A DNA stretch of 64,000 nucleotides from Eledone cirrhosa (GCA_964016885.1 OZ024742.1:262880001-262944000); one strand, 5' to 3'. Positions 1,889 to 6,185 are shown, counted from the first letter of the stretch. Made by a program: numbers and translations. Notes: generated by a model from the sequence alone, not told the origin.

Positions 1889-2013
1889 GTAGGAGGTGAG
1901 TTTTATTGTAGTACAATAAAGCAATGCAGATATCGGATAAGAAGCACTCTACAGTTTGTGGGACTGGAGTATGCATAATATAAGATCAAAAGATGGTTAA
2001 AGGAGTTCAATAT

Positions 2014-2082
2014 ATTTTATTATGCGCATTTCAAAAACAAACATCATCAAACAATAATATTTGTGTTTTCATCAGATAAAAC
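2014..2082 (-). ncRNA. Type I minimal hammerhead ribozyme motif
   Basis: Reverse complement of 2188-2256. Confidence 0.8.
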
Positions 2083-2187
2083 AGGAGAACATGATATGAA
2101 GGCTAAAAAAACACTTGTTGATAGTGCAGTTGATTTAAAACTGCACTATCAACAAGTGTTTTTTTAGCCTTCATATCATGTTCTCCT

Positions 2188-2256
2188 GTTTTATCTGATG
2201 AAAACACAAATATTATTGTTTGATGATGTTTGTTTTTGAAATGCGCATAATAAAAT
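2188..2256 (+). ncRNA. Type I minimal hammerhead ribozyme motif
   Basis: gttttat-CTGATGA-[stem II acaaatattatt/gatgatgtttgt, with GU pairs]-GAAA-tgcgca-TA-ataaaat: complete core, stem I ttttat/ataaaa, palindromic short stem III as in Penelope-type hammerheads. Confidence 0.82.
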
Positions 2257-2295
2257 ATATTGAACTCCTTTAACCATCTTTTGATCTTATATTAT

Positions 2296-2863
2296 ATGTA
2301 TATATATGTATATATATATATATGTATATATATGTATATATATATATATATATATATATATATATATATGTATATATATGTATATATATATATATATATA
2401 TGTATATATATGTATATATATATATATATGTATATATATGTATATATATATATATATGTATATATATGTATATATATATATATGTATATATATATGTATA
2501 TATATGTATATATATATATATGTATATATATGTATATATATATATGTATATATATGTATATATATATATATGTATATATATGTATATATATATATGTATA
2601 TATATGTATATATATATATATGTATATATATATATGTATATATATATGTATATATATATATGTATATATATATATATGTATATATATATATGTATATATA
2701 TATGTATATATATATATGTATATATATATATGTATATATATATATGTATATATATATATATGTATATATATATGTATATATATATATGTATATATATATA
2801 TGTATATATATATATATGTATATATATATATATATATATATGTATATATATATATATATATAT
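2296..2863. repeat. G-interrupted (TA)n array
   Basis: Directly visible. Confidence 0.97.
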
Positions 2864-2864
2864 A

Positions 2865-3722
2865 GTATTAGTTATACTATTTATGGTTATGTAAATACAA
2901 AACCTTAAGCAGTTGTAAGTATTTTACACACACCCTAAATAGTGGTAGGCAGTAATGTATTACTACCTTATTACCAGTAAGTTAAGTAGCTCAATGTAAA
3001 AACATCAGATGATTTACAGAGCAGTTATATGAAATATAAGAATCAAAGAACTGTTCAAAACATTATTGTGCTTACAGCTGTTTCCTTCAAACCGAGGTTT
3101 GGATTCTTCGGAGCAATTTATTAATGCATGGACAGTTATATGACCTCCCCTTCAGCCGAGAGACATACCAATACATATTCAAACATTGATACATATTCAA
3201 ACATTGTGGGTCAACATTCATTACAGAATTTAGAGTGGCAGTACACACTTCGAGATTACATTTATATTAATAGGTACAATCAAAAATCAAAGATATAGGT
3301 TAAAGTACAACATGAAGATAAGTGGTTATATAGTGCAAATGTTATATGTGTGGCACGCATGTGCGTCTTGTTTATATAGTGTGGCAGAGAGATATGTGTG
3401 GTAGAGGCACTTAGGTAGGTAAATAAGAGTGTTAGGTTGGTAGATCTGGTGGCAAAATCTTTATATGATTGATATAGTCTGTGTGTGGAGAAATATTATA
3501 AGCATTAAAGATAGTGCAAGCATTAAAAGTGTTATAAGTATTGGAGATGCACAGCGCAGGGAACTAAAGAACACCAGACTACGATCTCTAACTGGATTGT
3601 CGTAGATTATGTGAAAGGCATATAATCGAAATATACACTCCCTTGACCATGAAAATGCCGAAGTACATGAATTACTTGACATCCCTGCGCTGTGCATCTC
3701 CAATACTTATAACACTTTTAAT
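2865..3722 (-). mobile_element. Penelope-like terminal-repeat fragment with hammerhead and terminal inversion
   Basis: Hammerhead motif at 3066-3117(-); 41-bp perfect inverted repeat 3522-3562 / 3682-3722 at its 5' end; flanked by (TA)n. Confidence 0.55.
3066..3117 (-). ncRNA. Hammerhead ribozyme motif (CCGAAGA core variant)
   Basis: Minus strand: ttgct-CCGAAGA-[caaacc/ggtttg stem II]-GAAA-cagctg-TA-agca; stem I tgct/agca; palindromic stem III; U4C deviation in the core. Confidence 0.65.
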
Positions 3723-3976
3723 ACATATATATACATATATATATATATATATATATATATATATATACATATATATATATATATACATATATATATATAT
3801 ATATATACATATATATATATATATATACATATATATATATATATATACATATACATATATATATATATATATATATATATATATACATATATATATATAT
3901 ATATATATACATATACATATATATATATATATATATATATATATATATATATATACATATATATATATATATATAT

Positions 3977-4768
3977 AAGAATAAACGAACTAAGGAAAAA
4001 ATTAGAAATAAAAGGGATCAGATGTTGTTTACTCGAGAGAAGGCTACGTTGGTACGGTCACGTGATGCGCATGAAAGACGACAGCTGTATAACAAAGTGC
4101 AGGGCAATAAAGATAGACGGTAGCCACGGAGTAGGCAGACCCAGAAAAACATGGGACGAGCTGATAAATTCCGACCTCACACGCTTACACCTCTCCAAGA
4201 CAATGTCACTGGACCGAGACCTTTGGCGGTACTCAGTAATAGAGAAGACCCGCCTTACCTAAATACAAAGTAAAAACCTACTACAGTCAGTAGGCACCTC
4301 TATCAAAACACACCCCCGTCCCACCACCTCCACCCCACCCACACCGCCCCTTTCAATGTAAAGTTATGTTGGTCCCACAACATCCAGGCCGAAACAAATG
4401 AGATCGTGTAGGTGTCACGACAAAAAACACACAGTCCACGCTGTAAATGTGGCCGTGTAGGCAACACGGTAAAAACCTCCCAGCCCCACACTGTAAATGT
4501 GGTTGGTGTTAGGAAGGGCATCCAGCTGTAGAAAACCCGCCAGACAGTCCACGCTGTAATGTGGCCGTGTAGGCAACACGGTAAAAACCTCCCAGCCCCA
4601 CACTGTAAATGTGGTTGGTGTTAGGAAGGGCATCCAACTGTAGAAAACCCGCCAGACAGTCCTATGCGAGCAAGACAACCACTCTTGCCTCAAGTGGGAA
4701 AACCCCCGTCCAAACCCATGCAAGCGTGGAACACGGACGCTAAACCTGATGATGATGATGATGATGAT
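3977..4768 (+). mobile_element. 5'-truncated RTE family A copy (RT C-terminus, 3'UTR, (GAT)n tail)
   Basis: ORF 4062-4262 is nearly identical to the end of 10617-13787; 3'UTR carries a duplicated ~113-bp module; tail (gat)n. Confidence 0.92.
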
Positions 4769-5756
4769 ATATATATACATATATATATATATATATATAT
4801 ATATATACATATATATATATATATATATATATATATATACATATATATACATATATATATATATATACATATACATATATATATATATATATATATATAC
4901 ATATACATATATATATATACATATACATATATATATATATATACATATACATATATATATATATATATATATATATATATATATACATATATATATATAT
5001 ATATACACATATATATATATATATATATACATATATATATATATATATATATATATATACATATATATATATATATACATATATATATATATATATATAT
5101 ATATATATATATGTATATATATATATATATATATATATGTATATGTATATATATATATATATATATATATATATATGTATATGTATATGTATATATATAT
5201 ATATATATATATATGTATATGTATATATATATATGTATATATATATATGTATATATATATATATATATATATATGTATATGTATATATGTATATATATAT
5301 ATATATATATATATATATATGTATATATATATATATATATATATGTATATGTATATATATATATATATATATGTATATATATATATATATATATATATAT
5401 ATGTATATGTATATATATATATATATATGTATATATATATATATATGTATATGTATATATATATATATATATATATATATATATGTATATGTATATGTAT
5501 ATATATATATGTATATATATATATATATATATATATGTATATATATATATATATATATATATGTATATATATATATATATATGTATATGTATATATATAT
5601 ATATATATATATATATGTATATGTATATATATATATATATATATATGTATATGTATATATATATATATATATATATATATATATATGTATATGTATATAT
5701 ATATATATATATATATATATATATGTATATATATATATATATATATATATATATAT
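4769..5756. repeat. (TA)n array; C-interrupted first part, G-interrupted second part
   Basis: Directly visible; switch near 5080-5110. Confidence 0.95.
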
Positions 5757-5881
5757 GTAGGAGGTGAGTTTTATTGTAGTACAATAAAGCAATGCAGATA
5801 TCGGATAAGAAGCACTCTACAGTTTGTGGGACTGGAGTATGCATAATATAAGATCAAAAGATGGTTAAAGGAGTTCAATAT

Positions 5882-5950
5882 ATTTTATTATGCGCATTTC
5901 AAAAACAAACATCATCAAACAATAATATTTGTGTTTTCATCAGATAAAAC
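5882..5950 (-). ncRNA. Type I minimal hammerhead ribozyme motif
   Basis: Same sequence as 2014-2082. Confidence 0.8.
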
Positions 5951-6077
5951 AGGAGAACATGATATGAAGGCTAAAAAAACACTTGTTGATAGTGCAGTTT
6001 TAAATCAACATATGATATGTTGATTTAAAACTGCACTATCAACAAGTGTTTTTTTAGCCTTCATATCATGTTCTCCT

Positions 6078-6146
6078 GTTTTATCTGATGAAAACACAAA
6101 TATTATTGTTTGATGATGTTTGTTTTTGAAATGCGCATAATAAAAT
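6078..6146 (+). ncRNA. Type I minimal hammerhead ribozyme motif
   Basis: Same sequence as 2188-2256. Confidence 0.82.
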
Positions 6147-6185
6147 ATATTGAACTCCTTTAACCATCTTTTGATCTTACATTAT

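What the first reader, a model, noticed from the sequence alone, without database searches (positions are those of the whole stretch)
1889..6185. Duplicated palindromic mini-element carrying two opposed hammerhead ribozymes
Seen: two near-identical non-coding units (1889-2295, 5757-6185) with the same outer ends, each an 86-bp leader plus a 157-170-bp-arm palindrome. Each arm has a complete hammerhead core with a long GU-containing stem II and a self-complementary UGCGCA stem III. Established: Penelope-like elements carry minimal hammerheads with palindromic stem III that are thought to cleave as dimers, and often leave inverted terminal repeats. Inference: this may be a retrozyme/MITE-like non-autonomous unit. 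A transcript from either strand would contain one ribozyme plus its own antisense, so it could fold either as a self-cleaving RNA or as a long dsRNA hairpin (Dicer/ADAR substrate).
Basis: partly seen in the sequence, partly recalled or inferred. Interest (0 to 1): 0.8.

Follow-up and report, generated by a model that had tools for sequence, protein, structure and literature searches.

The report
Penelope retroelement's palindromic run-off stumps
The two hammerhead-bearing palindromes are the shortest of thousands of insertions of one Penelope-like retrotransposon; they likely form when two reverse-transcription products run off the start of its RNA and are joined head to head, so they are a by-product of a known element, not a new mini-element.

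Summary
Confirmed: two units, each an 86-bp extension plus a 157-171-bp-arm palindrome with a type I hammerhead per arm. They are not a free-standing retrozyme or MITE. The arm is the 3' end (pLTR) of a 3.7-kb Hydra-clade Penelope-like element with an 800-aa RT/GIY-YIG ORF, and the 'leader' is its tail, running into the next ORF. Inverted copies with a one-sided tail are textbook PLE anatomy.

Less ordinary: 4,157 arms genome-wide start at one base (ATATGTTG, window 6015) after a non-parental base, against 2,302 that run on upstream. Centres vary: 543 perfect, 270 with one extra base. An untemplated G often precedes the start (17 of 36), as after a cap. Long inverted copies have uncorrelated arm lengths.

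Best model: twin priming at two RNA sites on (TA)n targets, run-off at the transcript start, end-joining. About 64 arms start at the hammerhead cut, so templates were nearly all uncleaved. No RNA data were available; start site and cleavage are inferred. A second family lacks a sharp boundary. The scan noted similar stumps in another genome (e1-7858806).

The parts
1889..1974 (-). Unit 1 tail: 86-nt extension between the two 3' ends (putative RT start sites); in full elements it runs on into the 5' leader of the next ORF
   Evidence: L110: tail ends about 80 nt before the ATG
1975..2131 (-). Unit 1 tail-bearing pLTR arm, starting at +15 of the inferred transcript
2014..2082 (-). Type I hammerhead, minus-strand copy (mirror of 2188-2256)
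   Evidence: exact palindrome
2129..2295 (+). Unit 1 tail-less pLTR arm, starting at +5; 3-nt microhomology GTT (2129-2131) with the other arm; same junction as locus L007
2188..2256 (+). Type I hammerhead; core 2195-2201 and 2238-2241; predicted cut after 2249
5757..5842 (-). Unit 2 tail
5843..6013 (-). Unit 2 tail-bearing arm, starting at +1; hammerhead at 5882-5950
6014..6014 (.). Single G/C between the arms (cap-derived, or parental -1 base; ambiguous by symmetry); 270 loci have one base here, G/C in 48 of 50 listed
6015..6185 (+). Unit 2 tail-less arm, starting at +1 (ATATGTTG, the fixed boundary); hammerhead at 6078-6146, predicted cut after 6139 (+125)
1500..1888 (.). (TA)n target array left of unit 1 (extends further left)
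2296..2865 (.). (TA)n target array right of unit 1
4768..5756 (.). (TA)n target array left of unit 2
6186..6700 (.). (TA)n target array right of unit 2 (extends further right)

Best explanation
The units are the shortest insertion class of a Penelope-like retrotransposon with Hydra-clade motifs, likely made anew at each insertion by two reverse-transcription products that would run off the capped 5' end of the element's RNA and be joined head to head. Shown: parent element, tail on one arm only, (TA)n targets, a fixed 5' boundary, varied junctions. Inferred: (1) the element's GIY-YIG nuclease cuts both strands of (TA)n; (2) each DNA end primes cDNA internally on the RNA, one at site 1 (after GATCTTATAT) and one 86 nt further on at site 2; (3) on ordinary monomer RNA that starts at +1 in the pLTR, both cDNAs run off after about 170 and 256 nt, often gaining a C opposite the cap; (4) the two 3' ends anneal through their self-complementary ATAT (perfect palindrome) or are joined by microhomology repair; (5) only read-through tandem RNA gives long or full-length copies. 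The hammerhead lies between +1 and the priming sites and is mostly uncut in the templates; it likely acts, if at all, as a dimer on tandem RNA.
For: Parent: longer inverted pairs extend into a 1.2-kb 3' UTR and an RT/GIY-YIG ORF. L109 and L110 are partial tandems with 820-aa open frames, monomer 3,687 nt. Atlas neighbours at 0.95-0.98 include clusters with GIY-YIG and RVT_1. Tail: on exactly one arm in 37 of 40 perfect-centre loci, on both in 0, none found in 3. Boundary: 4,157 arms start at ATATGTTG after A/G/T, against 2,302 arms continuing upstream; 543 perfect centres, 270 with one base, 66 with two. 13 of the 15 joints shown in short-read contigs have an end at 6012-6019 (one study). Recurrence: short and long arms share haplotypes; an older subfamily has 795 long and 862 +1 arms. 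Twin priming: arm lengths of 30 long inverted copies uncorrelated (rho -0.03); tail arm longer in 10, tail-less in 15 of 28. Cap hint: in two-base centres, classes with a non-parental C after a cDNA end make up 37 of the 50 listed loci (CA 18, CC 15, CT 2, CG 2) against 2 with a parental G only. The unexplained base before +1 is G in 17 of 36 hand-sorted arms, against 38 of 286 other inserted bases (p about 1e-6). The parent reads TTTTC|ATATG, initiator-like (the motif is recalled). In vitro, PAc initiates internally at two sites that define the tail, extends both strands, and uses uncut RNA (PMC11167929). Penelope is transcribed from within the pLTR (PMC2377424). An untemplated 5' G is read as a cap mark in L1 (PMC6425141).
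Against: No RNA evidence for a start at +1. The C after the cDNA end can also arise by slippage on the local CAACATAT repeat (duplications in L126, L159, L161, L209), and the single G/C and CC classes are ambiguous by symmetry. The 36 arms were sorted by hand, 23 of 59 rows were dropped, and six loci contribute both arms. 8 of 30 long copies have arms within 100 nt of each other against 3.5 expected (p=0.013), which fits some fold-back or shared pause sites. Arms within a locus are closer (0.9%) than between loci (4.6%), as fold-back, a single RNA or gene conversion would also give. A second PLE family in the window has no single-base boundary: 21 of 30 arms are short, 11 start 40-61 nt upstream of the ribozyme pattern, the rest scatter. 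All family loci fetched are first-listed exact-pattern hits, nearly all on contig C1, so young copies are favoured.
Confidence: 0.72

Rival explanations
1. Same parent element, but the mirror arm is made by fold-back: one cDNA stops at +1 (transcript start or a strong RT stop), self-primes and copies itself.
For: Self-priming was proposed for palindromic PLE junctions (PMC3846280). Excess of near-equal arms, 8 of 30. Within-locus arm identity.
Against: Fold-back of a cDNA begun at the tail predicts that the tail arm is never the shorter one; it is shorter in 15 of 28. Perfect ATAT centres leave no loop (543 loci). +1 arms are joined to tail-only fragments, long partners or target DNA.
Confidence: 0.13
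2. The stumps also feed themselves: the tail-bearing arm of a stump is transcribed from +1, carries both priming sites and is mobilised in trans, rebuilding a new palindrome each time (SINE-like amplification without a fixed centre).
For: +1 arms outnumber long arms (4,157 plus 1,086 in perfect centres, against 2,302). Penelope's promoter lies within the pLTR (PMC2377424). pLTRs act in trans in Adineta (PMC3846280).
Against: No haplotype was shown to be confined to short copies; the older subfamily has 795 long arms. PAc needs 172 nt of ORF RNA for activity (PMC11167929), and stumps end about 80 nt before the ATG.
Confidence: 0.1
3. A retrozyme- or MITE-like non-autonomous element copied as a whole palindrome.
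For: 543 loci share one exact centre and both outer ends.
Against: Centres are diverse within one haplotype; lengths form a continuum up to ORF-bearing copies; no direct tandem arrays of the unit among the fetched loci; the perfect centre recurs across subfamilies, as ATAT annealing predicts.
Confidence: 0.04
4. Local duplication of one insertion, or an assembly fold-back artefact.
For: Two near-identical copies 3.9 kb apart in the same orientation.
Against: Different centres, no homology between the unique flanks, 12% of between-locus arm pairs in the sample are identical, and the junction types appear in short-read contigs.
Confidence: 0.01

Closest known systems
Hydra-clade Penelope-like elements (Craig et al. 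2021, PMC8557442), incl. Hydra-1_Obim and Penelope-13_HM
   Same: C-terminal endonuclease, DKT, CxCX5C linker, CxxC and CxH, (TA)n targets, type I hammerhead near the 3' end, inverted 5'-truncated copies, tail on one end.
   Different: 3.7 kb with a 1.2-kb 3' UTR (listed families mostly under 3 kb); RWT for RWK; tail 86 nt rather than 30-40; stem II much longer than the listed ones; hammerhead sequence unlike Hydra-1_oBim's (supplement file S2); thousands of stumps with a single-base 5' boundary.
PAc/Poseidon of Anolis, in vitro mechanism (Frangieh et al. 2024, PMC11167929)
   Same: Two internal RT start sites defining the tail; both target strands cut and extended; uncut RNA is the template.
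   Different: The text read does not explain inverted copies or a fixed 5' end. Here both start sites share 2-6 nt with the (TA)n target and lie upstream of the ORF.
Non-LTR retrozymes (bioRxiv 10.64898/2026.07.22.740005)
   Same: Derived from PLE pLTRs, type I hammerhead, non-coding.
   Different: Retrozymes are direct tandem repeats of same-sense ribozymes; these are head-to-head pairs with one sense ribozyme per strand.
L1 twin priming and cap-derived 5' G; retroviral strong-stop DNA
   Same: Inversion from two primers; untemplated G at a full-length 5' end (PMC6425141); short run-off from a primer site near the RNA 5' end.
   Different: Different enzyme class; here both cDNAs copy the same stretch. 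Twin priming and strong-stop DNA are recalled, not read here.

Membership tests
Penelope-like element (EN+) | Single ORF with RT and C-terminal GIY-YIG-type endonuclease | tested here: met
   820-aa frames in L109/L110 with RT motifs (FDIASYY, MGASDS, YRDD); atlas neighbours carry GIY-YIG and RVT_1 on part of their members; Pfam itself gave 0 hits
Penelope-like element (EN+) | Partial tandem forming pLTRs; inverted 5'-truncated copies; one-sided tail | tested here: met
Penelope-like element (EN+) | Hammerhead in the pLTR | tested here: met
   subfamily changes fall on core position 7, the loop and GU/AU-tolerant stem positions
Hydra clade | DKT in place of DKG | tested here: met
   HSDKTNN
Hydra clade | CxCX5C linker; no CCHH; CxxC and CxH around the conserved E and N | tested here: met
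   CNCRIKNKC; CNLCLNEK...INRR...ICLH, read by eye
Hydra clade | RWK motif | tested here: inconclusive
   RLRWT at the matching N-terminal place
Hydra clade | Insertion into (TA)n | tested here: met
Hydra clade | RT phylogeny groups with Hydra references | not tested
Non-LTR retrozyme | Direct tandem repeats, each with a same-sense hammerhead | tested here: not met
   short copies are minus-then-plus pairs or single arms
Non-LTR retrozyme | Circular RNA formed by self-cleavage | not testable with these tools
   no RNA holder listed
MITE | Fixed unit with symmetric TIR ends, fixed interior, TSD and a DNA-transposase partner | tested here: not met
   asymmetric ends, variable centre, retroelement parent; TSDs cannot be read in (TA)n
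Active hammerhead ribozyme | Self-cleavage as monomer or dimer | not testable with these tools
   stem III is 2 bp as a monomer; the AUGCGCAU self-duplex is -10.5 kcal/mol; 106 pattern hits at the cut, 18 of 30 inspected are true truncations, against 45 hits at a control position

The most novel reading that the evidence does not exclude
This family records the Penelope insertion reaction in thousands of genomic snapshots: both target ends prime on the 5' leader of monomer mRNA, run off a capped start, and are joined. Palindromic strong-stop products are then the main output, full-length copies need read-through tandem RNA, and the stumps may be re-mobilised as single-arm RNAs.
Probability: 0.55. 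Interest if true: 0.58.

Novelty: new member of a known kind. Interest (0 to 1): 0.4.

Why it matters
How PLEs make inverted copies and why they need tandems is stated as open (PMC8557442, PMC2377424). This young family, with near-intact ORFs, gives exact predictions: start at +1, priming at +171 and +257, target (TA)n, ATAT end-joining. These can be tested with the published in vitro assay. It also warns that such stumps get mis-annotated as MITEs, miRNA hairpins or retrozymes. Well over a thousand near-perfect 340-bp inverted repeats would be a large dsRNA source if read through; that was not tested.

Tried and rejected
The repeat finder was swamped by (TA)n. Rfam: no hammerhead hit. The DNA search of the own genome returned nothing, not even the window; patterns were used instead. 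Pfam and PDB sequence search did not recognise the ORF. No RNA holder listed: no evidence either way on expression. Insertions starting at the hammerhead cut: at most a weak excess over one control position, inconclusive. Generality test on the second family: no sharp boundary. The first arm-length measurement (tail arm longer 12, tail-less 16, equal 2 of 30) used locus lengths and was redone in element coordinates (L107, L109, L110 and L113 left out as tandems). A splice acceptor as the boundary was rejected (no AG before +1). The hammerhead cut as the boundary was rejected (it lies at +125). An Eulor/UCON hairpin-tail link, recalled, was not supported by the passages read. The hand-built hammerhead fold (-5.8 against MFE -10.6) omits the outer stem II pairs, so that gap is overstated. 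Sequence look-up in earlier findings: nothing.

Full report
Observation. Both units are as described. Unit 1 has perfect 157-bp arms (1975-2131, 2139-2295). Unit 2 has arms 5843-6013 and 6015-6185 around one G. They differ by 22 nt at the centre and one substitution, and each sits in a long (TA)n array. The unique flanks share no homology. Each arm holds a type I hammerhead with a 7-bp stem I, core CUGAUGA (2195-2201), a long GU-containing stem II, GAAA, a palindromic UGCGCA and a predicted cut after 2249. Rfam found no hammerhead. The genome is 3.0 Gb in 1,796 contigs. An octopus-like host is my inference from genome size, (TA)n richness and RTE-type LINEs; no call names it.

A dispersed family with a parent. 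A 40-mer of the ribozyme matches 875 + 903 times; among the 100 listed, most are minus-then-plus pairs 124 to 6,047 nt apart, 164 most often. The wider pairs continue from the arm into a 1.2-kb AT-rich 3' UTR and then an ORF. L109 and L110 are partial tandems with 820-aa open frames and a 3,687-nt monomer; the 86-nt 'leader', read on the other strand, follows the arm and runs on towards the ATG. The protein has RT motifs, DKT, a CxCX5C linker and CxxC/CxH motifs, matching the description of the Hydra clade (PMC8557442, section 11), with RWT for RWK. Pfam and PDB searches were blank; atlas neighbours include GIY-YIG and RVT_1 clusters. Inverted 5'-truncated copies with a tail on one end are standard PLE anatomy (PMC8557442; PMC8969392). 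Here the tail is on exactly one arm in 37 of 40 perfect-centre loci, on both in none, and not found in 3.

A fixed 5' boundary. Truncation is not random. 4,157 arms begin at ATATGTTG (window 6015, called +1) after A, G or T, where the parent has C. 2,302 arms continue into the 3' UTR. These are exact-pattern counts, hence lower bounds, and the patterns differ in length. Centres: 543 perfect CAACATATGTTG, 270 with one extra base, the unit 2 type (G/C in 48 of 50 listed), 66 with two, and many microhomology or templated-insertion joints. Unit 1's centre recurs at L007. Arms starting at +1 are also joined to tail-only fragments, to long partners or directly to (TA)n, so the boundary does not depend on the palindrome. 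In short-read contigs of one study, 13 of the 15 joints shown have an end at 6012-6019 (78 more not shown; this may be the assembly's own sample).

Built anew, not copied whole. Of 217 aligned arms, short and long ones share haplotypes, and the perfect centre occurs in several subfamilies. An older subfamily has 795 long and 862 +1 arms. In 30 long inverted copies the two arm lengths are uncorrelated (rho -0.03); the tail arm is longer in 10 and the tail-less arm in 15 of 28. That fits two separately truncated cDNAs better than fold-back. Against this: 8 of 30 pairs lie within 100 nt where 3.5 are expected (p=0.013), and arms of one locus differ by 0.9% against 4.6% between loci (50 of 93 pairs identical; own arm strictly nearest in 16, tied in 44). 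One RNA, cis-preference, fold-back or conversion could each give that.

What sets the boundary. The parent reads TTTTC|ATATG, initiator-like (recalled motif). Among 50 of the 66 two-base centres: CA/TG 18, CC/GG 15, AT 10, CT/AG 2, CG 2, GA/TC 1, GT/AC 1, AA/TT 1, GC 0. So a non-parental C after a cDNA end is common and pure parental extension is rare. Of 59 arms with inserted bases I dropped 23 by hand (7 subfamily-SNP artefacts, 8 templated duplications, 8 ambiguous single-C rows). In the remaining 36 the base before +1 is G 17, T 13, A 5, C 1, against 38 G in 286 other inserted bases (p about 1e-6). The rows are not fully independent, and the search pattern excluded C at that position except on partner arms. 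An untemplated 5' G is read as a cap mark in L1 work (PMC6425141). Caveat: slippage on the CAACATAT repeat also adds C. Penelope of D. virilis starts within its pLTR (PMC2377424). No RNA run was listed, so +1 as start site is inferred. The second Hydra-like family in the window (42% protein identity; 1,349 matches) has two 3' ends and short inverted copies but scattered 5' ends: 9 of 30 arms long, 11 starting 40-61 nt upstream of the ribozyme pattern, 10 elsewhere. The sharp boundary is therefore not general.

Mechanism. PAc protein cuts and extends both target strands, starts RT at two internal RNA sites that define the tail, and uses uncut RNA (PMC11167929). Applied here: priming at +171 and +257 on a monomer RNA that starts at +1 can only yield about 170- and 256-nt run-offs; joining them head to head gives these units, and their ATAT ends explain the perfect centre. 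Only tandem read-through RNA yields long copies. Steps shown: anatomy, boundary, junction spectrum. Steps inferred: start site, cap, twin priming, end-joining.

The ribozyme. The main subfamily changes hit core position 7, the loop and wobble-tolerant stem sites (counts there include overlapping loci), which fits selection in the parent. Stem III is 2 bp as a monomer and an 8-bp duplex (-10.5 kcal/mol) as a dimer, like PLE hammerheads that cleave weakly and as dimers (PMC4209133). Every +1 arm spans the cut at +125. A pattern for arms starting at the cut gave 106 hits, 18 of 30 inspected being true truncations (about 64 if scaled), against 45 hits six bases upstream. Templates were thus almost all uncut. 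In the palindrome the antisense arm is transcribed first from either side and the hairpin is -270 to -282 kcal/mol, so read-through gives dsRNA rather than a ribozyme.

Literature seen. PMC8557442: abstract, passages, section 11, supplement part 2 of 59 and a term search. PMC11167929: parts 1-2 of 4 (main text); supplements not read. bioRxiv 10.64898/2026.07.22.740005: part 1 of 5 and passages; supplements closed. PMC2377424, PMC3846280, PMC4209133, PMC5753468, PMC6425141, PMC8969392: passages. PMC3846280 already notes palindromic junctions and proposes self-priming. Searches listed no paper whose title, abstract start or read passages describe run-off palindromes with a capped boundary in PLEs; subscription papers, Repbase and Dfam are not covered.

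Verdict. The value lies in the single-base boundary and junction spectrum as a genomic read-out of the PLE reaction. Interest 0.4.

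Noticed in passing
window 59863-63700 (+): Second Hydra-like PLE: RT/EN frame 59863-61089 (42% identical to the parent protein), long 3' UTR interrupted by an RTE-type 3' fragment, hammerhead core at 63577 with palindromic UAUGUA(UA) stem III, tail ending near 63776; 1,349 exact matches of a 28-mer genome-wide.
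   Followed up: partly
window 55376-57130 (+): Third, decayed PLE (tblastn hits E 1e-16 to 1e-8) with a hammerhead-like core at 57075 and a CAAUUG palindrome.
   Followed up: no
window 2981-3720: Inverted 41-bp repeat (about 3522-3562 and 3682-3722) with GIY-YIG-like remnants and a CTGA core on the minus strand near 3005: probably another PLE fragment between the two units.
   Followed up: no
window 3975-4767, 10617-13900, 22060-25359, 30195-35933, 40165-42651: Many RTE-type LINE copies ending in (GAT)n, one near full length; CR1/Jockey-like RT frames at 7127-9530 and 25391-27283 (labels recalled from motifs).
   Followed up: no
L232-L235 (G000:C1:63696133-63699405): Second-family insertion with three 65-nt direct repeats, each holding half a hammerhead, plus an inverted copy: a possible seed of a retrozyme-like tandem.
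   Followed up: no
L068, L225, L244, L250: Copies of the two PLE families insert next to each other in the same (TA)n arrays.
   Followed up: no
L130 (10 kb upstream of the window): Gag- and integrase-like frames of an LTR retroelement on the minus strand; no copy of the unit.
   Followed up: no
L120, L124, L126, L159, L161, L209: Junctions with short repeated copies of the arm's first 8-20 bases, like polymerase-theta templated insertions or telomerase-type realignment at the template end.
   Followed up: partly
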